A DNA stretch of 64,000 nucleotides from an uncultured Solibacteraceae bacterium (GTDB taxonomy: Bacteria; Acidobacteriota; Vicinamibacteria; Vicinamibacterales; SCN-69-37), in the NCBI GenBank assembly GCA_964423815.1, contig CAYRGW010000004.1, positions 370 to 64,369 of the forward strand, read 5' to 3'. The notes beneath the pieces were generated by a model. That model saw only the letters and a program-made list of their open reading frames with translations, searched no databases and was not told the DNA's origin. Each line of letters begins with the position of its first letter. Positions within the stretch are counted from its first letter, which is position 1. Positions 23,222 through 30,140 of the stretch are shown here, piece after piece. The position numbers and the translations under genes are program-made.

Positions 23222-23255
23222 TTGACACGTGGTGCATGCAATGTGCATATTGCAT
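23222..23255 (+). promoter_or_regulatory. Sigma70 promoter with palindromic TA operator
   Basis: TTGACA at 23222-23227; ATGCAAT-GTGCAT-ATTGCAT inverted repeat (23236-23255) over the -10 region. Confidence 0.65.
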
Positions 23256-23258
23256 GGT

Positions 23259-23507
23259 ATGGGCACCAAGACGATTTCTCTGAAAAACGAGGCCTATGCG
23301 CGGTTACGAGCGGCCCGGCGGTACCCCGATGAGTCGTTCAGCGAAGTCGTCCTGCGTGCGACGTGGCCGGAAGACACCGCGACGGCCGGGTCATTCTTGC
23401 GTTTGCTTCGGCAGCGACGCGTGCACTTCACAGACGATGAAATCGGCCGGATCGAAGAGCTGAAACGGGCCGATACGCCGCCGGAGGACAAGTGGGCCGC
23501 GCGCTGA
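23259..23507 (+). CDS. Antitoxin, VapB-like (UPF0330/DUF217 type)
   Basis: TKTISLKNEAYARL...ESFSEVVLR; overlaps the PIN toxin gene. Confidence 0.8.
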   Translation: MGTKTISLKNEAYARLRAARRYPDESFSEVVLRATWPEDTATAGSFLRLLRQRRVHFTDDEIGRIEELKRADTPPEDKWAAR

Positions 23508-23890
23508 TCCTGGAGACGACCTTTCTGATCGACCTGGATCGTGAGGAGCGACGGGGACAGCCCGGTCCGGCGGTCACGTTTCTTGAGCGCGAACCCGATG
23601 CACGCCTGTACGTCCCTTCAGCAGTGGCCGGCGAACTTGCCGGAGGGCCATCCTCGCGCGACCGCGACAAATGGGAAGCGTTTATCGGGCCGTTGTTCGT
23701 GCTGCCGCCCACACCCGACATCTGCTGGCAGTACGGCCGGATCGTCCGTCACCTGAAAGACAACGGCCAACTGATCGGCACAAACGATCTGTGGATCGCC
23801 GCGACGGCTGTCGTCCACAACATGCCCCTTGCGACGCGCAACGCCGCACACTTCAGGCGCGTGCCGGATCTGGAACTCGAGACGTACTGA
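23492..23890 (+). CDS. vapC: PIN-domain toxin
   Basis: ILETTFLID; VAGEL; IGTNDLWIAATA; TRN..HF. Confidence 0.88.
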   Translation: MGRALILETTFLIDLDREERRGQPGPAVTFLEREPDARLYVPSAVAGELAGGPSSRDRDKWEAFIGPLFVLPPTPDICWQYGRIVRHLKDNGQLIGTNDLWIAATAVVHNMPLATRNAAHFRRVPDLELETY

Positions 23891-23910: not shown

Positions 23911-23919
23911 TGTTATGCT
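23911..23919 (+). promoter_or_regulatory. Putative extended -10 promoter of the lysine operon leader
   Basis: TGtTATGCT 13 bp upstream of the leader ATG. Confidence 0.4.
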
Positions 23920-23932
23920 CTCCCCCGACGTT

Positions 23933-24025
23933 ATGTCACTCGTTGCCAAGCGCATGCAGATGAAGATCAAGCGGGCCTCGCTCAAGCGGGTCCCGCGCGC
24001 ATTGGCGGACGTAATGACGGCCTGA
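23933..24025 (+). CDS. Putative leader peptide, 30 aa, Lys/Met-rich: MSLVAKRMQMKIKRASLKRVPRALADVMTA
   Basis: Read directly from the sequence (not in the ORF track); four AAG Lys and four Met codons; directly upstream of the terminator and asd. Confidence 0.75.
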   Translation: MSLVAKRMQMKIKRASLKRVPRALADVMTA

Positions 24026-24066
24026 CGGTTCTTTCACCACAAGTCAGCCCACTCTCTTTACCCGCT
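23990..24066 (+). promoter_or_regulatory. Attenuator protector (1:2) and antiterminator (2:3) hairpins
   Basis: 1:2 = GTCC(C)GC 23990-96 with GCGGAC 24005-10. 2:3 = GGCGG(AC)GTAA 24004-14 with TTACCCGCT 24058-66, enclosing GG(C)CTGAC/GTCAGCC. Confidence 0.65.
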
Positions 24067-24096
24067 GATGCGCGCAAGCGCCCAGCGGGTTTTTTT
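24060..24096 (+). terminator. Intrinsic terminator (attenuator 3:4)
   Basis: ACCCGCTG/CAGCGGGT stem, inner GCGC-GCAA-GCGC, followed by a T run (24090-24096); lies 46 bp before asd. Confidence 0.88.
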
Positions 24097-24142
24097 ATGT
24101 CTCCAGACAGGCGTAATGACCACGACGACAAGGACGATCGCG

Positions 24143-25186
24143 ATGAAGAAGATTGAAGTAGGCGTACTCGGTGCCACCGGCATGGTGGGGCAACAGTTCA
24201 TCAGCCGGTTGGCGAACCATCCCTGGTTCGACGTGACCTGGTTGGCCGCAAGTGAACGCTCTGAAGGGAAGCGCTACGACTCCGCCGCACCGTGGCGATT
24301 GTCAACGCCGACTCCAGACGCCGTTCGTCCAATGATCATGAATGCCTGCGAACCGGGCCGTGGCCCGAAGGTCGTCTTTTCCGCTCTTGATGCCTCCGTC
24401 GCAGGCGAGGTGGAAGCCGCCTTCGCCGCCGCCGGACACATCGTCCTCAGCAACGCACGCAACCACCGGATGGATCCGCTGGTGCCGTTGCTGATTCCTG
24501 AAGTGAACGCGGATCACCTGGCACTCCTGAAGGAGCAACAGGCCGCCAAAGGATGGTCAGGCGCCATCGTCACCAATCCCAACTGCTCAACCATCGTGCT
24601 TGCGATCGCCTTGGCCCCGCTGCGCCAGTTCGGTCTGACCCGCGTGGTGGTGTCGACGATGCAGGCGGTGTCAGGGGCTGGGTATCCCGGTGTGCCCTCA
24701 CTGGACATCCTCGGCAACCTGGTGCCGTATATCGGCGGCGAAGAAGAGAAGATCGAAGCCGAGACCAACAAGATCCTCGGCGCCGATGGTGGTCGTGACC
24801 CGCACCCGGTCGTCATCAGCGCACACACCAACCGTGTCCCGGTGATCGATGGCCACACGATGACGGTGTCGGTGGAGCTGGAGTCCCGGCCATCCGTGGA
24901 AGAAGTGACCGAGGCGTTCCGCCAGTTCAGTGGCCGCCCGCAGGCGTTGAAATTGCCCACGGCCCCTGTGCCGGCGATCGTCGTACACACTGAAGCGAAT
25001 CGACCGCAGCCACGGCTGGATGCCGACCTCGGTGACGGCATGGCGGTGTCGGTGGGCCGTGTGCGCACGTGCCCGGTCTTCACGCACCGGTTCGTGACGC
25101 TCGGCCATAACACCGTCCGCGGTGCCGCCGGTGCGTCCATCCTCAACGCGGAACTGATGCAGGCGGATGGGTCATGGTTGTCCTGA
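24143..25186 (+). CDS. asd: Aspartate-semialdehyde dehydrogenase
   Basis: GVLGATGMVGQ; NPNCST catalytic Cys; HNTVRGAAG; AAGGA RBS. Confidence 0.96.
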   Translation: MKKIEVGVLGATGMVGQQFISRLANHPWFDVTWLAASERSEGKRYDSAAPWRLSTPTPDAVRPMIMNACEPGRGPKVVFSALDASVAGEVEAAFAAAGHIVLSNARNHRMDPLVPLLIPEVNADHLALLKEQQAAKGWSGAIVTNPNCSTIVLAIALAPLRQFGLTRVVVSTMQAVSGAGYPGVPSLDILGNLVPYIGGEEEKIEAETNKILGADGGRDPHPVVISAHTNRVPVIDGHTMTVSVELESRPSVEEVTEAFRQFSGRPQALKLPTAPVPAIVVHTEANRPQPRLDADLGDGMAVSVGRVRTCPVFTHRFVTLGHNTVRGAAGASILNAELMQADGSWLS

Positions 25187-26520
25187 AGTTCGGGGGCACG
25201 TCGGTTGCCGACCGCGCCGCGTTGCAACGGCTGATCAGGATCGTTCGCGACACCGGAGGGCCGCAGGCCGTCGTGGTGTCCGCGCTTGGAGGCGCGACCG
25301 ACCGCCTGCTTGGAATCGCCGCCCAGGCGGGCGCTGGTGATGCCGACGGCGCGCGGATCATCGTGCAGCAACTGCTCGACCGGCACGTGGAAGTAGTGGG
25401 CGTCATCAGCGACGGGACCCTTCGCAAGGACGTCGAACGTTTCCTGCTCGCGGAGTTCGAGGAACTTCGCCGTGTCGTAGACGCGCTCAGTGTGCTGCGC
25501 GAAGTGTCGCCCCGATGGCTTGATGCGATTGCCGCCGTCGGCGAGATCTGCAGTAGTCGGATTGTCGCGGCCGCCCTCACCAGTGAGGGAGTGCCTGCGG
25601 CGTGGGTGGATGCGCGGCAGGTCATGGTCACCACAAACGCGTTTACTGCGGCGCCACCGTTGATGGCCCAGACCACTGTTCGCGCGCGCGCGGCGATGAT
25701 GCCACTCTTGCACGCCGGCACGGTTCCCGTCATGGGAGGATTTGTCGGCGCGACCGAGCAGGGCGTCACGACGACACTGGGGCGTGGAGGGTCTGACTAT
25801 TCCGCTGCAATCCTTGGCGCCTGCCTCGATGCGTCAGAAATTCAGATCTGGACCGACGTGGACGGGATGTTGACTGCGGACCCGCGATTGGTGCCCGGTG
25901 CGCGACTGGTGCCGCAGCTATCGTTTGCCGAGGCCTCCGAATTGTCGTACTTCGGCGCAAAGGTTCTCCATCCTTCGACGATCCTGCCCGCGGTCGACAA
26001 GAACATCCCGGTCCGTATCCTCAACTCGCGGAATGCGGGCGTGGCCGGCACACGCATCACTGCATCCCGTCCCGCGACCGGGCAGCCTCTCACCGCCGTC
26101 GCCAGCAAACGTGGTGTGACGGTGGTCGACATCGCCTCCACGCGCATGCTGATGGCCCACGGTTTCCTGCATCGTTTGTTTGGCGTGTTTGAAAAACATG
26201 CGACGTCGGTCGACGTGGTGACGACCTCTGAGGTCTCCGTGTCGGTGACGGTCGACGATGTCCGGCGATTGCCGGCCGTGATTGCCGAGTTGAGCGAGTT
26301 TGCCGATGTCACCCGCGAAGACGACATGGCGGTGTTGTGCGCGGTGGGTGAGGGCATCGCCGGGGACGCCCGGTTCGTGGGCGAACTGCTCCGCGCGCTG
26401 GGGCCCGTCCCCATTCGGATGTTGTCGCAGGCCGCCGAACGACGGAACATTACCCTGGTGATTCCCGATACTGAACTGCCCACCGCGCTTGCGCGGGTCC
26501 ACGAGGTCTTTTTCTCATGA
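25174..26520 (+). CDS. lysC: Aspartate kinase (lysine-sensitive type, two ACT domains)
   Basis: VLKFGGTSV; TTTLGRGGSDYSA; WTDVDG; ACT domains. Confidence 0.95.
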   Translation: MVVLKFGGTSVADRAALQRLIRIVRDTGGPQAVVVSALGGATDRLLGIAAQAGAGDADGARIIVQQLLDRHVEVVGVISDGTLRKDVERFLLAEFEELRRVVDALSVLREVSPRWLDAIAAVGEICSSRIVAAALTSEGVPAAWVDARQVMVTTNAFTAAPPLMAQTTVRARAAMMPLLHAGTVPVMGGFVGATEQGVTTTLGRGGSDYSAAILGACLDASEIQIWTDVDGMLTADPRLVPGARLVPQLSFAEASELSYFGAKVLHPSTILPAVDKNIPVRILNSRNAGVAGTRITASRPATGQPLTAVASKRGVTVVDIASTRMLMAHGFLHRLFGVFEKHATSVDVVTTSEVSVSVTVDDVRRLPAVIAELSEFADVTREDDMAVLCAVGEGIAGDARFVGELLRALGPVPIRMLSQAAERRNITLVIPDTELPTALARVHEVFFS

Positions 26521-27212
26521 CACGCATCCTTCTGCTCGGGCACGGGCGTATGGGACGACTGGTCGAATCACTCGCGTCCGAGTGTGACTGTCAGATCGTC
26601 CAGGTGGTCACCAGTGTCGGTGGCGCGATGGTGATCGAAGCGTTGGACCAACCGGTGGATGTGGCGATTGATTTCACGACACCCGACGCCGTGCTCGCCA
26701 ACGTGGTGGCGCTCGGTCGTCGCGGTATCAGTGTCGTGATTGGGACCACGGGCTGGCAGGCCGTGGAGCCTGACGTGCGCGCGGCCGTGGAACAGTCGGG
26801 GATCGGCGCGTTGGCCGCGTCCAACTTTTCCATCGGCCTGCACGTGTTTCGGCGCGCGGTGGCCGCTGCGGCGGAGGGGTTTGCCTCCGACGAGACGGTC
26901 GGGGCCTGGGTTCACGAAGCGCATCACATCCACAAGAAGGACGCGCCCTCCGGCACCGCGCTGACACTGCGCGCGACGGTCGAGCAGGCCGGTTACCGCC
27001 GGCCTGTTGATGTTTCGTCCACTCGGGCGGGCGCGATCCCCGGCACACACACGGTCGGGTTTGACGGTCCCAGTGAAACCGTCACCCTGACCCACACGGT
27101 GCGGGACCGCGCGGTCTTCGCCCGGGGCGCATTGGACGTCGCGCGCTGGCTGGCGGGACGACGAGGGTGGTTGACGATCGATGACTTCATAAGCGGGAGA
27201 GAGCAGCGATGA
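26517..27212 (+). CDS. dapB: 4-hydroxy-tetrahydrodipicolinate reductase
   Basis: GHGRMG; IDFT; VIGTTG; EAHHIHKKDAPSGTA. Confidence 0.96.
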   Translation: MTRILLLGHGRMGRLVESLASECDCQIVQVVTSVGGAMVIEALDQPVDVAIDFTTPDAVLANVVALGRRGISVVIGTTGWQAVEPDVRAAVEQSGIGALAASNFSIGLHVFRRAVAAAAEGFASDETVGAWVHEAHHIHKKDAPSGTALTLRATVEQAGYRRPVDVSSTRAGAIPGTHTVGFDGPSETVTLTHTVRDRAVFARGALDVARWLAGRRGWLTIDDFISGREQR

Positions 27213-28126
27213 GAGTTCCATTTACCGGCGTAGGCACAGCACTGATCACTCCGTTCACGGCCGATGGGTCGCTCGACGAACCGGCCATCAGCCGGCTCGC
27301 ACGCCGACAAATCAACGCCGGTGTGCATGTCCTCGTCCCCTGCGGCACCACCGGCGAGACGCCGACCCTGTCGTTTGACGAACGGCGTCGTGTCATTGAG
27401 TTGGTGGCCGCCGAAGCCACAGGCCGCGCGCTGGTGCTCGCCGGCGCGGGCGGTTACGACACCAAAGAAGTGATCCACATGGCCGCAATGGTGAAGGCGG
27501 CCGGCGCCGACGGCATCCTCTCGGTCACGCCGTATTACAACAAGCCGACTCCCGAAGGCCTCTACCAGCACTACGCGGCCATTGCAGGGTCCACCGATCT
27601 GCCGATCATCGTGTACAACGTGCCCGGCCGCACGGGCTGCAACATCGATCCGGCCACGCTGGTCCGTTTAGCCGGTATTCCCAATATCATCGGCGTCAAG
27701 GAAGCGTCCGGCAACATTTCGCAGATCGCCGAGATCTGCCACGCCGTGCCGTCGGACTTCATCGTGATGTCCGGAGACGATGCGATTACGTTGCCGCTGA
27801 TGGCGTTGGGTGGGCACGGGGTCATTTCGGTGGCCTCCAATGAGGTGCCGGCCGAGATGGTGCAGATGGTGGAAGCGTTTGAGCGCGGCGCGTTGGCCGA
27901 CGCACGGTTCTGGCACAACAAGTTGTTGCCGATCATGCAGATGAACTTCATCGAGTCCAATCCCGGGCCGGTGAAGTTTGCCATGGCGGCGATGGGACTG
28001 TGCGAGGACGTATTCCGGTTGCCGGTCGTGTCGCCGCGCCCGGCCTCGCGGGAAAAAATTCTCGGCGTGTTGCGGGATCTCGGACTGCCAGTGGTGGCCG
28101 GTGAAGGCGCTGGAGTACGGTCATGA
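27209..28126 (+). CDS. dapA: 4-hydroxy-tetrahydrodipicolinate synthase
   Basis: CGTTGE; TPYYNKP; YNVPGRT; GVKEASG; SGDD. Confidence 0.97.
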   Translation: MRVPFTGVGTALITPFTADGSLDEPAISRLARRQINAGVHVLVPCGTTGETPTLSFDERRRVIELVAAEATGRALVLAGAGGYDTKEVIHMAAMVKAAGADGILSVTPYYNKPTPEGLYQHYAAIAGSTDLPIIVYNVPGRTGCNIDPATLVRLAGIPNIIGVKEASGNISQIAEICHAVPSDFIVMSGDDAITLPLMALGGHGVISVASNEVPAEMVQMVEAFERGALADARFWHNKLLPIMQMNFIESNPGPVKFAMAAMGLCEDVFRLPVVSPRPASREKILGVLRDLGLPVVAGEGAGVRS

Positions 28127-28968
28127 GTGATCTGGCGGAGCGTATCGGCCTACTGTTTGCCGGCGGCACCGACGCGGACAAGGACGAGGCGCGTCGCGCC
28201 TTCCTGGAGTTGCAGCGCGCGCTGAGCGACGGCGAGATTCGCGCCGCCGAGCCTGATACGTCGGCGCCGAGTGGCTGGCGTGTGAACGCGTGGGTAAAGC
28301 AGGGCATTCTCCTCGGCTTCCGTTTTGGTGACGTCGTGGACATGTCGGGCGACCACGGGCGCTGGCCGTTTTACGACAAGGACACGATGCCGCTCAAAAG
28401 GCCAGGCCTGGGCGCCGGCGTGCGCATCGTCCCTGGCGGATCCACCATTCGGGAAGGTGCGTATGTCGCGGCGAGTGTGGTGTGTATGCCCCCGATGTAT
28501 ATCAATATTGGCGCGTACGTCGGCGAAGGCTCGTTGGTCGATTCACATGCGCTTGTCGGGTCGTGTGCGCAGGTCGGTCAGCGTGTGCATATTTCCGCCG
28601 CCGCGCAGATTGGTGGCGTGATTGAACCCGTTGGCGCGTTGCCGGTGATCATTGAAGATGATGTGCTGGTGGGGGGCAACACGGGGATCTACGAAGGCGC
28701 GGTCATCAAAACCCGTGCGGTGATCGCCGCCGGTACGGTGTTGACGGGATCAACGCCCGTGTACGACCTGGTGCACGGCGTGATCATCAAGCCGGAGCCC
28801 GGTCAACCTCTGGTGGTGCCGGCCGGCGCCGTGGTGGTTCCCGGCGCCCGAGCCGTGACGGTTGGTGCCGGCAAGGACTGGGGCCTGTCGCTGGCCACGC
28901 CGGTCATTGTGAAATACCGGGATGATCGAACGGACACACGGACTGAGTTGGAATCATGGATACGCTAA
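28123..28968 (+). CDS. dapD: Tetrahydrodipicolinate N-succinyltransferase
   Basis: W.VNAWVKQGILL.F; YDKD; hexapeptide repeats; GGVIEP. Confidence 0.95.
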   Translation: MSDLAERIGLLFAGGTDADKDEARRAFLELQRALSDGEIRAAEPDTSAPSGWRVNAWVKQGILLGFRFGDVVDMSGDHGRWPFYDKDTMPLKRPGLGAGVRIVPGGSTIREGAYVAASVVCMPPMYINIGAYVGEGSLVDSHALVGSCAQVGQRVHISAAAQIGGVIEPVGALPVIIEDDVLVGGNTGIYEGAVIKTRAVIAAGTVLTGSTPVYDLVHGVIIKPEPGQPLVVPAGAVVVPGARAVTVGAGKDWGLSLATPVIVKYRDDRTDTRTELESWIR

Positions 28969-28974
28969 GAGCGT

Positions 28975-29120
28975 TTCACATGGAGGCATGAAGGCATGGA
29001 GCGTGTCTGACAGGGGTTGGGAGCCCGGCTTTGCCGATCGTGCCAAGCCGCCGGAGGCGGCCCCAACCCTCGCTGTTCGAAGTCTCCTTGGTCTCTTCAT
29101 GTCTTCATGTCTCTATGTGA
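28975..29120. repeat. Nested palindromic element between dapD and the M20 gene
   Basis: Outer arms TCACATGGAGGCATGAAGGCATGGAG / CTCTTCATGTCTTCATGTCTCTATGTGA; inner AGGGGTTGGG/CCCCAACCCT, CGGCTT/AAGCCG and CCGCC-GGA-GGCGG. Confidence 0.7.
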
Positions 29121-29141
29121 GTGAACTTATGCGAGGGTTTT

Positions 29142-30140
29142 GTGGATCACGCAGAGCTGCTGTCGTTTGCGCGCGCGCTTGTTGACATTGACTCGACCAC
29201 CGGTCGCGAGCAGGAGGTGGCGGGCTTTATCGCGCGCACACTGCGCGATCGCGGGTGGTACGTCGATCAGCAGCCGCTGACCGACGGTCGATTCAACGTC
29301 ATCGCGCGCGTCGGCGATCCAACGGTGGTGATGTCGACACACTTCGACTGTGTGCCGCCGTTTTTTCCGAGCCGTGTCGAGGGTGGCCGTCTCTACGGAC
29401 GGGGCGCCTGCGACGCCAAGGGCATTCTTGCCGCGCAGGTTGCGGCGGCGGAGCGCGCCCGGCTCGCGGGGCGCACCGACGTCGGGCTGTTGTTTGTGGC
29501 AGGCGAAGAGCGAGGTAGCGACGGCGCCAAGGCCGCCAACGAGTGGGCGAACGCGTCGAAGATTCTGATCAACGGTGAACCTACCGACAATCGACTCGGG
29601 CTCGCGACCAAGGGTGTGTACCGCGCTCGACTGACCGCCAGCGGTCGGGCAGCGCATTCCAGCCTGCCGCACCTGGGTGAATCGGCCATCGAAAAAATGC
29701 TTGATGCCCTGGTCGCGCTGCGCGAGACCGAATGGCCGGTGGACGAGTTACTGGGGCCGACCAACTATTCGATTGGCCTGATGAGTGGCGGCGTGGCCCC
29801 GAACGTGATTCCACCCTCCGCTTCGGCCGAGCTGATGTTCCGGACGGTGAGTGACTATCGCGAGGTGCGCGACCTGCTGGAGGACGCGATTGGGACCTGT
29901 GCCACCATCGAAGACGTGCTGGTCGTGCCGCCCGTCCGGCTGCACACCATCGACGGATTCGACACCGCCGTCTTCGCCTACACCACCGACGTCCCGTTCC
30001 TGACCCATTGGGGTGTGCCGATGCTGCTCGGCCCAGGGTCGATCACCGTGGCCCACACCGATGACGAATCGATCGACCTCGCCGAACTCGACGCCGCCGT
30101 CGTCCTCTACGAACGCCTGCTGGCCATTAATCAGCCGTAG
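29142..30140 (+). CDS. M20 family metallo-desuccinylase/deacylase (probable DapE role)
   Basis: THFD; GRGACDAKG; GEE; NGEPT; VAH metal ligands; follows dapD. Confidence 0.8.
   Translation: MDHAELLSFARALVDIDSTTGREQEVAGFIARTLRDRGWYVDQQPLTDGRFNVIARVGDPTVVMSTHFDCVPPFFPSRVEGGRLYGRGACDAKGILAAQVAAAERARLAGRTDVGLLFVAGEERGSDGAKAANEWANASKILINGEPTDNRLGLATKGVYRARLTASGRAAHSSLPHLGESAIEKMLDALVALRETEWPVDELLGPTNYSIGLMSGGVAPNVIPPSASAELMFRTVSDYREVRDLLEDAIGTCATIEDVLVVPPVRLHTIDGFDTAVFAYTTDVPFLTHWGVPMLLGPGSITVAHTDDESIDLAELDAAVVLYERLLAINQP

What the first reader, a model, noticed from the sequence alone, without database searches (positions are those of the whole stretch)
23933..24096. Lysine leader-peptide attenuator controlling the asd-lysC-dap operon
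Seen: an unannotated 30-codon ORF (MSLVAKRMQMKIKRASLKRVPRALADVMTA) with 4 Lys (all AAG), 4 Met, 1 Ile and 1 Thr, followed by three mutually exclusive hairpins. 1:2 is 23990-96 with 24005-10. 2:3 is 24004-14 with 24058-66 and encloses the leader stop codon. 3:4 is the terminator 24060-90 with a GCAA loop and a T run. The last Lys codon (23984-86) lies just 5' of segment 1. Known: this is the geometry of trp/his/thr attenuators, whereas lysine/DAP operons are normally controlled by the lysine riboswitch, and I know of no characterised Lys-codon attenuator. Inferred: a ribosome stalled at Lys18 masks segment 1, frees the antiterminator and gives read-through under lysine starvation; Met/Ile codons may add sensing of other aspartate-family amino acids.
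Basis: partly seen in the sequence, partly recalled or inferred. Interest (0 to 1): 0.9.

Follow-up and report, generated by a model that had tools for sequence, protein, structure and literature searches.

The report
Lysine-sensing leader-peptide attenuator before asd
A tiny 30-codon gene rich in lysine, methionine and isoleucine codons, followed by competing RNA hairpins and a terminator, most likely lets ribosome stalling switch on the lysine/aspartate-pathway operon of this soil/groundwater acidobacterium; it is an uncatalogued, class-wide version of the textbook trp/thr attenuator in a lineage that has no lysine riboswitch.

Summary
ATG 23933 to TGA 24025 encodes MSLVAKRMQMKIKRASLKRVPRALADVMTA. 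It starts 13 nt after an extended -10 box. It is followed by a strong intrinsic terminator (24060-24096), which ends 46 nt before asd (ATG 24143, not 24144).

Its "1:2" hairpin is weak and not conserved. The better anti-antiterminator is 23941-23953 with 23997-24013, which encloses a conserved hairpin P1 (23971-23996).

A covariance model finds the element in 159 of 301 Vicinamibacterales genomes. Outside that order it hit only one genome, in the same class. Every homologue read in full carries a uORF in the same frame, and 53 of 54 distinct leaders keep an R-K-R-type Lys codon. Before that core sit lineage-specific Lys, Thr, Ile or Met codons: 41% against 16% in the proteome.

Sister leaders match their operons: R-K-R with few other such codons before dapBAD, Met-rich before hom-metY, Thr/Ile-rich before AK-hom. 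Neither this genome nor 30 relatives have a lysine riboswitch.

Best reading (about 0.7): a near-leaderless ribosome-mediated attenuator that senses Lys, plus Met and Ile here. It is a new variant of a known mechanism. No experimental data exist.

The parts
23911..23919 (+). Extended -10 promoter element TGTTATGCT (TGnTATGCT). The transcription start is inferred at about 23926-23928, which leaves a 5' UTR of about 5-7 nt with no Shine-Dalgarno sequence.
   Evidence: GTGTTATGCT is conserved in the genus and TATACT (often with a TTGACG -35 box) in other families. All 23 leaders with readable upstream sequence have it, 5-23 nt (median about 12) before the uORF start. No transcription-start data exist.
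23933..24025 (+). Leader-peptide uORF of 30 codons plus TGA: MSLVAKRMQMKIKRASLKRVPRALADVMTA.
   Evidence: A homologous in-frame uORF of 19-35 codons is present in every homologue read in full.
23948..23986 (+). Sensor codon zone: K6 R7 M8 Q9 M10 K11 I12 K13 ... K18. All four Lys codons are AAG. K18 is the last position where a stalled ribosome still allows the antiterminator.
   Evidence: Ribosome-mask folding: with the A-site at K6 to K18 the antiterminator has probability 0.78-0.99 (M8 is an exception). With the A-site at R19 or later the terminator reaches 0.95 or more. Lys/Thr/Met/Ile codons make up 41% of this zone against 10% of the tail across 53 leaders.
23941..23953 (+). Segment 1 (CGUUGCCAAGCGC), the 5' strand of the anti-antiterminator. 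It pairs with 23997-24013.
   Evidence: RNAduplex gives -19 kcal/mol. It appears in the full-length minimum-energy fold. Across 23 relatives 70% of cells pair, against 26-43% when slid, and 9 pairs change on both sides.
23971..23996 (+). Hairpin P1 (GCGGGCCUCGC-UCAA-GCGGGUCCCGC), nested inside the 1:2 helix. It contains the two AAGCGGG (K-R) repeats. It may act as a pause or spacer hairpin.
   Evidence: Folding energy -16.7 kcal/mol. 87% of cells pair, against 23-58% when slid, and 5 pairs have compensatory changes.
23995..24014 (+). Segment 2, the 5' strand of the antiterminator (GCGCGCAUUGGCGG plus GUAA). It spans codons 21-28 of the uORF.
   Evidence: Changes at the terminator bulge are compensated in L011, L012 and L014. 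79% of cells pair, against 28-54% when slid.
24022..24047 (+). Small hairpin CUGAC...GUCAG that holds the uORF stop codon (TGA 24023-25). It lies in the loop of the antiterminator.
   Evidence: -5.7 kcal/mol. CTGAC and GTCAG are conserved within the genus.
24058..24075 (+). Segment 3. It is both the 3' strand of the antiterminator and the 5' half of the terminator.
24060..24096 (+). Intrinsic terminator: ACCCGCUG-AU-GCGC-GCAA-GCGC-C-CAGCGGGU followed by U7.
   Evidence: -21.9 kcal/mol. 91% of cells pair across relatives, and U-A changes to C-G in 9 sequences.
24130..24145 (+). Shine-Dalgarno sequence AAGGAC and the asd start codon ATG 24143. Only 46 nt separate the T-run from asd.
   Evidence: In many relatives the gap is shorter still, so asd probably depends on read-through.
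24143..30140 (+). Controlled operon: asd 24143-25186, aspartokinase lysC 25174-26520, dapB 26517-27212, dapA 27209-28126, dapD 28123-28968, and an M20 DapE-like gene 29121-30140. The first five genes overlap at their junctions.
   Evidence: Pfam hits and ORF coordinates.

Best explanation
This is a ribosome-mediated (leader-peptide) transcription attenuator of the asd-lysC-dapB-dapA-dapD(-dapE) operon.

Inferred sequence of events:
- Transcription starts a few bases before the uORF AUG, at an extended -10 promoter.
- With charged Lys-, Met- and Ile-tRNAs plentiful, the ribosome runs through to codons 19-31. There it occupies segment 2 or its extension, and behind it segment 1 re-pairs with segment 2.
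- Segment 3 is then free to form the terminator with segment 4, and RNA polymerase stops at about 24096.
- When those tRNAs are scarce, the ribosome stalls at K6, M8, M10, K11, I12, K13 or K18. This covers segment 1 and/or P1 and leaves segment 2 (23995-24014) free.
- Segment 2 captures segment 3 (24058-24075) as soon as it is made. The terminator cannot form, and transcription continues into asd.

Shown here: the sequence features, their conservation, covariation, codon bias and thermodynamic bistability.
Inferred: the transcription start, translation of the uORF, and which amino acids are actually sensed.
For: 1. Anatomy. The uORF, four mutually exclusive segments and a terminator of -21.9 kcal/mol with a U7 tail are all present. 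The two global states are nearly isoenergetic: 1:2 plus P1 plus terminator is about -57 kcal/mol, and P1 plus antiterminator is about -54.

2. Ribosome-mask folding. With the A-site at K6 to K18 the antiterminator has probability 0.78-0.99. With the A-site at R19 to the stop the terminator has probability 0.95 or more. Prefix folding of 54 homologues gives the same polarity in most of them.

3. Conservation. Model R1 hits 159 of 301 genomes of the order and 59 of 119 genera. It hits nothing outside the class in a 151-genome sample of the phylum. Every homologue read in full keeps an in-frame uORF whose stop lies 14-55 nt before the terminator.

4. Helix support against slid controls: terminator 91% paired, P1 87%, antiterminator 79%, 1:2 helix 70%, with slid versions at 23-58%. 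Compensatory changes at the terminator bulge are specific to the antiterminator.

5. Promoter. A -10 box lies 5-23 nt before the start codon in 23 of 23 leaders. The sequence upstream of it is unrelated between genomes, so the element belongs to asd and not to vapBC.

6. Codon bias. Lys is 6.8-fold enriched. Lys/Thr/Met/Ile codons make up 41% of the sensor zone, against 10% in the tail, 6-11% in the other frames and 16% in the proteome.

7. Sister leaders match their pathways:
- MTITVIMTTTMRK before asd-lysC.
- R-K-R with few other Asp-family codons before dapB-dapA-dapD.
- Met-rich before hom-metY.
- Thr/Ile-rich before AK-hom.
- Ile-rich before a LeuA/CimA-like gene.

8. No lysine riboswitch was found in this genome or in 30 relatives, while the positive controls were detected.
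Against: - There are no transcriptome, Term-seq or Ribo-seq data for this organism. Public RNA runs hold only contigs from relatives.
- The Lys codons are few and scattered (4 of 30, never adjacent), unlike the runs in his, phe or thr leaders. In some homologues a single Lys codon is the only Asp-family codon.
- The Lys codon is embedded in a motif conserved at the nucleotide level, (CGA)AAGCGG(G). Its GCGGG is also complementary to the terminator arm CCCGC. Its conservation may therefore be structural rather than codon-driven.
- Arg is also enriched, 2.7-fold.
- A ribosome at the stop codon overlaps only 1 nt of the antiterminator core (A-site minus 15 = 24008), so termination relies on kinetics and on 1:2 re-pairing.
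- Free RNA is predicted to favour the antiterminator at the prefix stage, and M8 behaves anomalously at equilibrium.
- Antiterminator duplex scores are only moderately better than shuffles in this G+C-rich RNA (median z = -1.8).
- Luteitalea has a Thr/Ile-rich leader before an operon that includes dap genes, so the match between codons and operon is not strict.
Confidence: 0.7

Rival explanations
1. The attenuator is real and depends on the ribosome, but lysine is not the sensed signal. The invariant CGA-AAG-CGN core and the Arg-rich peptide would report arginine supply, decoding of the rare CGA codon, or general translation capacity (coupling of ribosome to RNA polymerase). The Lys codons would be by-products of RNA-structure constraints.
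For: - Arg is 2.7-fold enriched.
- CGA makes up only 0.63% of codons genome-wide yet is the usual Arg codon before AAG in the other genera.
- AAGCGGG resembles the terminator 3' arm (C/G)GCGGGU, so it is constrained as RNA.
Against: - Arg is equally enriched in the non-sensor tail (19%), whereas Lys falls from 18% to 1%.
- The operon makes lysine, not arginine.
- The dapBAD-specific leaders keep R-K-R and have few Thr, Ile or Met codons.
- Sister leaders clearly use cognate codons: Met for hom-metY, Thr/Ile for AK-hom.
Confidence: 0.12
2. The conserved basic peptide (core RKR...RKR) is a functional small protein, or the attenuated transcript is a functional small RNA. Control of asd in cis would then be secondary or absent.
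For: The R-K-R core is conserved at the peptide level across the order. There is precedent for dual-function trp leaders in S. meliloti, peTrpL and rnTrpL (PMC7298713, PMC6614838).
Against: - Outside the core the peptide is not conserved. It changes frame-locally (L005 against the window) and varies in length from 19 to 35 residues.
- Only 46 nt or fewer separate the terminator from asd, which leaves no room for an independent promoter.
- The element always sits before Asp-family genes.
Confidence: 0.06
3. This is an RNA-only switch, such as an unknown riboswitch or a site for a protein or tRNA, and the reading frame is incidental.
For: The region has strongly conserved nucleotides and four covarying helices. 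P1 and the GAAA-type loops look like a structured aptamer.
Against: - There is no Rfam match.
- The frame, start codon and stop are kept in all homologues despite indels.
- The start codon sits at a fixed short distance from the -10 box.
- The variable 5' part has no conserved structure but a strong amino-acid-specific codon bias that is absent in the other frames.
Confidence: 0.06
4. The hairpin is simply the terminator of the upstream vapBC pair, and the ORF is a chance open frame.
For: vapC ends at 23890 on the same strand, 170 nt upstream.
Against: Relatives without vapBC and with unrelated upstream genes keep the promoter, uORF and terminator in front of asd.
Confidence: 0.02

Closest known systems
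E. coli thr operon leader thrL (Rfam Thr_leader RF00506) and the other classical trp/his/leu/phe/ilv attenuators
   Same: A short leader ORF rich in codons for the end-products of the pathway. Segments 1:2, 2:3 and 3:4 are mutually exclusive, and an intrinsic terminator sits directly before the first biosynthetic gene. Sensing is multivalent, as thrL senses both Thr and Ile. Homologues in other Vicinamibacterales families read MTRTTITITVTTRK, very like the thrL peptide.
   Different: - There is no sequence or covariance-model similarity.
- It controls asd and the lysine branch.
- Here the sensor is scattered Lys, Met and Ile codons rather than a run.
- It has an invariant R-K-R core.
- The stop codon lies after segment 2, not between segments 1 and 2.
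- The transcript is probably leaderless or nearly so.
S. meliloti SEP5 sORF in the asd 5' UTR (Hadjeras et al. 2023, PMC10117765)
   Same: A small translated ORF with clustered Thr and Lys codons (6 Thr, 3 Lys) upstream of asd. The authors proposed it is a leader peptide.
   Different: It is from an unrelated phylum and was reported as conserved only in Sinorhizobium. No RNA switch was described and no regulation was tested. I did not test sequence relatedness to the present element.
Leaderless polycysteine uORF attenuators of mycobacteria (bioRxiv 10.1101/834739) and actinobacterial leader peptides (PMC1262725)
   Same: The uORF begins at or next to the transcription start without a Shine-Dalgarno sequence. 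Codons for the pathway product control the downstream operon.
   Different: The amino acid and phylum differ. Here the read-out is a clear intrinsic terminator paired with an antiterminator. The leaderless status is only inferred from the position of the -10 box.
Lysine riboswitch (L-box, RF00168)
   Same: It has the same regulatory niche: lysine-dependent premature termination before lysC, asd or dap genes.
   Different: The mechanism is entirely different, because the riboswitch binds the metabolite directly. It is absent from this region and from this genome and 30 relatives.

Membership tests
Classical ribosome-mediated (leader-peptide) transcription attenuators | Short translated ORF in the leader, enriched in codons for the end-product(s) of the controlled pathway | tested here: met
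   A 30-codon uORF is present. Lys is 6.8-fold enriched, and Lys/Thr/Met/Ile codons make up 41% of the sensor zone against 16% in the proteome. Translation itself was not shown.
Classical ribosome-mediated (leader-peptide) transcription attenuators | Intrinsic terminator between the leader ORF and the first structural gene | tested here: met
   The terminator spans 24060-24096, folds at -21.9 kcal/mol and has a U7 tail. It ends 46 nt before asd, and 91% of cells pair across relatives.
Classical ribosome-mediated (leader-peptide) transcription attenuators | Antiterminator that shares a strand with the terminator and whose other strand lies in or next to the ORF | tested here: met
   The helix 23995-24014 with 24058-24075 has 14-18 bp. 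Only 1 of 200 shuffles scores as well, and it shows compensatory changes.
Classical ribosome-mediated (leader-peptide) transcription attenuators | Anti-antiterminator (1:2) that is masked by a ribosome stalled at the sensor codons | tested here: met
   The helix 23941-53 with 23997-24013 scores -19 kcal/mol and pairs in 70% of cells against 26-43% when slid. Masking simulations place the switch between K18 and R19. This is in silico only, and the geometry differs between families.
Classical ribosome-mediated (leader-peptide) transcription attenuators | Read-through rises when the cognate aminoacyl-tRNA is limiting | not testable with these tools
   No culture, reporter or RNA-end data exist. 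Public RNA runs hold only contigs from relatives.
Rfam Thr_leader RF00506 and other Rfam leader families | Match to the family covariance model | tested here: not met
   cmscan at E up to 10 found no leader family on the window leader. On the Thr-rich Luteitalea homologue it found only a chance Leu_leader hit of 12 bits against a cut-off of 50.
Lysine riboswitch RF00168 | Match to the L-box covariance model | tested here: not met
   There is no hit in the region. There is no hit in the whole genome or in 30 relatives, while E. coli, B. subtilis, T. maritima and L. lactis controls were detected.
Leaderless uORF attenuators (actinobacterial type) | uORF start codon at the transcript 5' end with no Shine-Dalgarno sequence | tested here: inconclusive
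   The -10 box ends 5-23 nt before the start codon (13 nt here). This implies a 5' UTR of about 0-8 nt in most leaders (longer in the two with 23 nt) and no Shine-Dalgarno sequence. No transcription-start data exist.

The most novel reading that the evidence does not exclude
Vicinamibacteria may run the whole aspartate-family regulon with one modular family of near-leaderless attenuators, in place of lysine riboswitches and perhaps other RNA sensors (only the lysine riboswitch was tested). The operons concerned are asd-lysC, dapBAD, hom-metY, AK-hom, hom-thrC and cimA/leuA. All share one terminator design.

In this reading the invariant CGA-AAG-CGN (R-K-R) core is a dedicated one-codon lysine sensor. 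Its sensitivity would be boosted by the rare CGA codon and the polybasic nascent chain. Lineages would tune the input by adding Thr, Ile or Met codons in front of it.
Probability: 0.3. Interest if true: 0.7.

Novelty: new variant of a known kind. Interest (0 to 1): 0.58.

Why it matters
Lysine biosynthesis genes are the textbook case for riboswitch control. I found no experimentally characterised lysine-codon attenuator in five of the six full-text literature searches. The nearest published hint is an untested Thr/Lys sORF before asd in Sinorhizobium.

If this reading is correct, three things follow.
- An abundant but barely studied soil and groundwater class solves lysine and aspartate-family feedback with translation-coupled attenuation on near-leaderless transcripts.
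- Very few sensor codons, sometimes a single Lys codon in an R-K-R context, would be enough.
- The same scaffold is re-coded for Lys, Thr/Ile, Met or Ile. That makes it a natural series for asking how many codons, and which context, an attenuator needs.

It also gives genome annotators a model (R1) for an uncatalogued cis-regulatory family present in about half of Vicinamibacterales genomes.

Tried and rejected
- **Rfam at permissive E-values**. Only chance hits came back, so there is no lysine riboswitch, Thr_leader or asd motif here.
- **My first idea** was that the repeated AAGCGGG is the antiterminator strand because it mimics the terminator 3' arm. I set it aside. A ribosome stalled at or before it would mask it or leave it locked in P1. 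Folding and duplex searches instead pick 23995-24014 in most homologues. It remains a possible secondary pairing in L013, L020, L051 and L115.
- **Equilibrium full-length folding with ribosome masks over all 54 homologues** was uninformative, because the terminator dominates nearly everywhere. Prefix folding was used instead.
It was useful only for naming the order Vicinamibacterales.
- **A search of this genome for further copies of the same terminator type** found none with a leader ORF. R1 also hits only once in this genome.
- **RNA evidence.** No RNA run holds this organism. Metatranscriptome contigs from relatives span the leader but also include the promoter, so they say nothing about 5' or 3' ends.
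- **A strict codon-to-operon correlation was rejected.** Luteitalea has a Thr/Ile-rich leader before asd-lysC-dapB-dapA-M20.
- **The vapBC terminator reading** was rejected on comparative grounds.
Full report
**What is in the sequence**

The gap between vapC (PIN domain, ends 23890) and asd is 252 nt. asd starts at ATG 24143, preceded by AAGGAC. A start at 24144 is out of frame. Downstream lie asd, an aspartokinase (lysC), dapB, dapA and dapD with overlapping junctions. An M20 DapE-like gene follows after a 152-nt gap.

ATG 23933 to TGA 24025 encodes MSLVAKRMQMKIKRASLKRVPRALADVMTA, with AAG Lys codons at 23948, 23963, 23969 and 23984. The terminator 24060-24090 (ACCCGCUG-AU-GCGC-GCAA-GCGC-C-CAGCGGGU) folds at -21.9 kcal/mol and is followed by seven U. 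No Rfam family matches the region even at E = 10. That includes the lysine riboswitch, Thr_leader and the asd motif.

**Revised RNA geometry**

Folding the transcript up to the terminator loop pairs 23995-24008 (GCGCGCAUUGGCGG) with 24062-24075 (CCGCUGAUGCGCGC), 14 contiguous pairs. The helix is extended by 24011-14 with 24058-61.

- The duplex scores -31.4 kcal/mol, and 1 of 200 dinucleotide shuffles is as good.
- The full-length minimum-energy fold instead shows the terminator, a hairpin P1 (23971-23996, -16.7 kcal/mol) and an outer helix 23941-23953 with 23997-24013 that encloses P1.
- The two global states are nearly isoenergetic: about -57 kcal/mol for 1:2 plus P1 plus terminator, and about -54 for P1 plus antiterminator.
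- Free full-length RNA is predicted to be bistable, with P(antiterminator) 0.42 and P(terminator) 0.50.

**Ribosome-position simulation**

I masked 28 nt around each A-site codon. With the A-site at K6, M10, K11, I12, K13, R14 or K18 the antiterminator has probability 0.78-0.99. M8 is an equilibrium outlier. With the A-site at R19, R22, L24 or the stop codon the terminator has probability 0.95 or more.

A kinetic proxy is to fold each transcript to mid-terminator. Applied to 54 homologues, it gives the same polarity in most. The antiterminator is allowed while the ribosome is in the first 12-17 codons, up to the R-K-R core, and reduced beyond that. Equilibrium folding of full-length homologues was uninformative.

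**Comparative evidence**

asd orthologues were located in 40 relatives.

- In 14 of 15 same-genus genomes aligned, and in most other families examined, the upstream region aligns with the window. The shared features are a -10 box, a uORF, the motif (CGA)AAGCGG(G), a GGCGG/GGUGG-containing segment 2 and the terminator ACCCGC(U/C)G...(C/U)(A/G)GCGGGU(n).
- The sequence upstream of the -10 box is unrelated between genomes. Where asd follows another gene directly (L010, L022, L026, L027, L029), the element is missing.
- A covariance model (R1) hits 159 of 301 genomes of the order and 59 of 119 genera.
- In a 151-genome sample of the phylum it hits only members of the same order plus one genome of the same class.
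- Record titles of loci that coincide with two of the handles name the order Vicinamibacterales, phylum Acidobacteriota.
- Across 23 aligned leaders the terminator pairs in 91% of cells, P1 in 87%, the antiterminator in 79% and the 1:2 helix in 70%. Slid versions pair in 23-58%.
- The AU bulge of the terminator plays no role in the terminator itself. Changes there are matched in segment 2 in L011 (CU with AGCGG), L012 (UU with CAAUGG) and L014. That is evidence specific to the antiterminator.

**Evidence that the frame is read**

- Every homologue read in full has an ATG or GTG ORF of 19-35 codons in the same frame. It ends 14-55 nt before the terminator.
- Indels restore the frame, for example +2 and +1 nt in L005 and L008.
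- A TATGCT- or TATACT-type -10 box ends 5-23 nt (median about 12) before the start codon in 23 of 23 cases. It has a TG extension throughout the genus and a TTGACG -35 box in several other families. This implies a 5' UTR of roughly 0-8 nt in most leaders with no Shine-Dalgarno sequence, that is, a leaderless or near-leaderless uORF.

**Codon content**

The proteome of this genome has 2.5% Lys, 6.7% Thr, 2.3% Met and 4.5% Ile.

- In the first 19 codons of 23 leaders Lys is 16.7% (6.8-fold), Met 2.5-fold and Arg 2.7-fold enriched.
- Over 53 distinct leaders, Lys/Thr/Met/Ile codons make up 41% of the zone from codon 2 to the last K of the core. They make up 10% of the tail and 6-11% of the other two frames of the same nucleotides.
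- Arg is equally high in the sensor zone and the tail (17% and 19%).
- 53 of 54 distinct leaders have at least one K-R, K-H or K-C dipeptide. Outside the window's genus it is nearly always spelled CGA-AAG-CGN.
- The codons before the core vary by lineage:
  - AKRMQMKIK in the window's genus.
  - SSSKQTKSK in a sub-clade.
  - TITGTTTTTATM, STITAIMTTTM and TITVIMTTTM in family f8.
  - TRTTITITVTT in a Luteitalea MAG.
  - TKKTTVTT, TKRTTKTT and similar elsewhere.

**Sister attenuators**

Second R1 hits in some genomes lie before other aspartate-family operons.

- In family f8, asd-lysC has the Thr/Ile/Met/Lys leader. There, dapB-dapA-dapD has its own leader that keeps the R-K-R core: MTRRFAAPRKRGRPNGG..., MCICAITTRKRS..., VSVSAIARKRSARKRY.... 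It has no long Thr/Ile/Met run, although two of them carry two Ile and one or two Thr codons.
- hom-metY is preceded by Met-rich leaders (...MCMSMAVSMRMDMRMCQ, ...IIIGMGMHMHMPMCQ).
- AK-hom is preceded by MQRRLTTISTINTRTRII.
- hom-thrC is preceded by ...MFAATTITCSMCMRIRMTRM.
- A LeuA/CimA-like gene is preceded by ...HICIIT.

This match between codons and pathway is what ribosome-mediated attenuation predicts. It is the best available argument that the R-K-R lysine codon is a sensor. The match is not perfect, because the Thr/Ile-rich Luteitalea leader precedes asd-lysC-dapB-dapA-M20.

Neither this genome nor 30 relatives contain a lysine riboswitch, while four control genomes do.

**What remains uncertain**

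- There is no experimental evidence. No RNA run holds this organism.
- The Lys codons are few and non-adjacent.
- The AAG sits in a nucleotide motif whose GCGGG is complementary to the terminator arm, so part of its conservation may be structural.
- CGA is a rare codon here (0.63% of codons), and its near-invariance is unexplained.
- The terminating ribosome barely overlaps the antiterminator core, so termination under plenty must rely on timing and 1:2 re-pairing.
- The identity of the anti-antiterminator differs between families. In f8, P1 itself, with GAAA as its loop, overlaps segment 2.

**Comparison with what is known**

In mechanism this is a classical attenuator of the thrL type, because it is multivalent. 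It matches no Rfam family.

Five of my six full-text searches were aimed at this question. They found no described lysine-codon attenuator and nothing for Acidobacteria. [quoted passage not shown]

The nearest publication is the S. meliloti SEP5 sORF, which has 6 Thr and 3 Lys codons and lies in the asd 5' UTR. It was shown to be translated and proposed, without test, to be a leader peptide (PMC10117765). Earlier notes of this scan report analogous asd leaders in Chitinophagaceae, Alphaproteobacteria and Chloroflexota. I treat these as leads, but they suggest repeated independent invention.

**Verdict**

It is a new variant of a known mechanism and a new cis-regulatory family confined to Vicinamibacteria. 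Interest is moderate to high, mainly for lysine sensing by very few codons, the invariant R-K-R core, the near-leaderless layout and the modular re-coding across the aspartate family.

Noticed in passing
window 24116-24142: Between the terminator and asd there is an in-frame ATG that would add MTTTTRTIA (5 Thr, 1 Ile in 9 codons) to Asd. In the closest relative (L002) the same stretch is a separate 9-codon ORF, MTPTTRMIA*, whose TGA overlaps the asd ATG. Only these two genomes have the insert. It may be a chance ACG/ACGAC repeat around the Shine-Dalgarno sequence, or a second, translational Thr sensor.
   Followed up: partly
window 23229-23890: A vapB (PF02697) and vapC (PIN) toxin-antitoxin pair lies directly upstream on the same strand. 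It is absent at this position in relatives, so it looks like an insertion next to the asd promoter.
   Followed up: partly
L191, L193, L192, L185 (second R1 hits in other Vicinamibacterales families): Methionine-rich leader peptides (for example ...MCMSMAVSMRMDMRMCQ, ...GMGMHMHMPMCQ) with the same terminator design precede hom-metY. Pfam confirmed homoserine dehydrogenase plus a Cys/Met PLP enzyme for L191 only; the others were read from the aligned sequence. This looks like a Met-codon attenuator, which is also rarely described.
   Followed up: partly
L189, L190, L186: Three further leaders were seen. A Thr/Ile-rich one (MQRRLTTISTINTRTRII) precedes aspartokinase-hom. A Thr/Met/Ile-rich one precedes hom and a PALP enzyme (likely thrC). 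An Ile-rich one (HICIIT) precedes a LeuA/CimA-like synthase.
   Followed up: partly
L181-L184 (family f8, genomes G050, G187, G236, G101): dapB-dapA-dapD has its own copy of the element, and its leader keeps the R-K-R core with few other Asp-family codons (MTRRFAAPRKRGRPNGGVAVLCA). The asd-lysC leader of the same family, read from other genomes (for example L046, L067), is Thr/Ile/Met-rich.
   Followed up: yes
All leaders outside the window's genus, for example L023, L024, L129: The Arg codon before the sensor Lys is almost always the rare CGA (0.63% of codons genome-wide), giving an invariant CGAAAGCG. Its role is unexplained. It could be a GNRA-like loop, a slow-decoding context or a complement of the terminator arm.
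   Followed up: partly
L007, L017, L019, between the terminator and asd: Short tandem repeats fill the spacer in some relatives: GGTTGGG-type units in L007, GAAAGTC heptamers in L019 and a duplicated element of about 60 nt in L017.
   Followed up: no
L139 (MAG labelled Cyanobacteriota), L106 (MAG labelled Woeseiaceae): These contigs carry weak to moderate matches to the leader model. L106 is nearly identical to L072, from an Acidobacteria MAG, so these may be mis-binned acidobacterial contigs.
   Followed up: no
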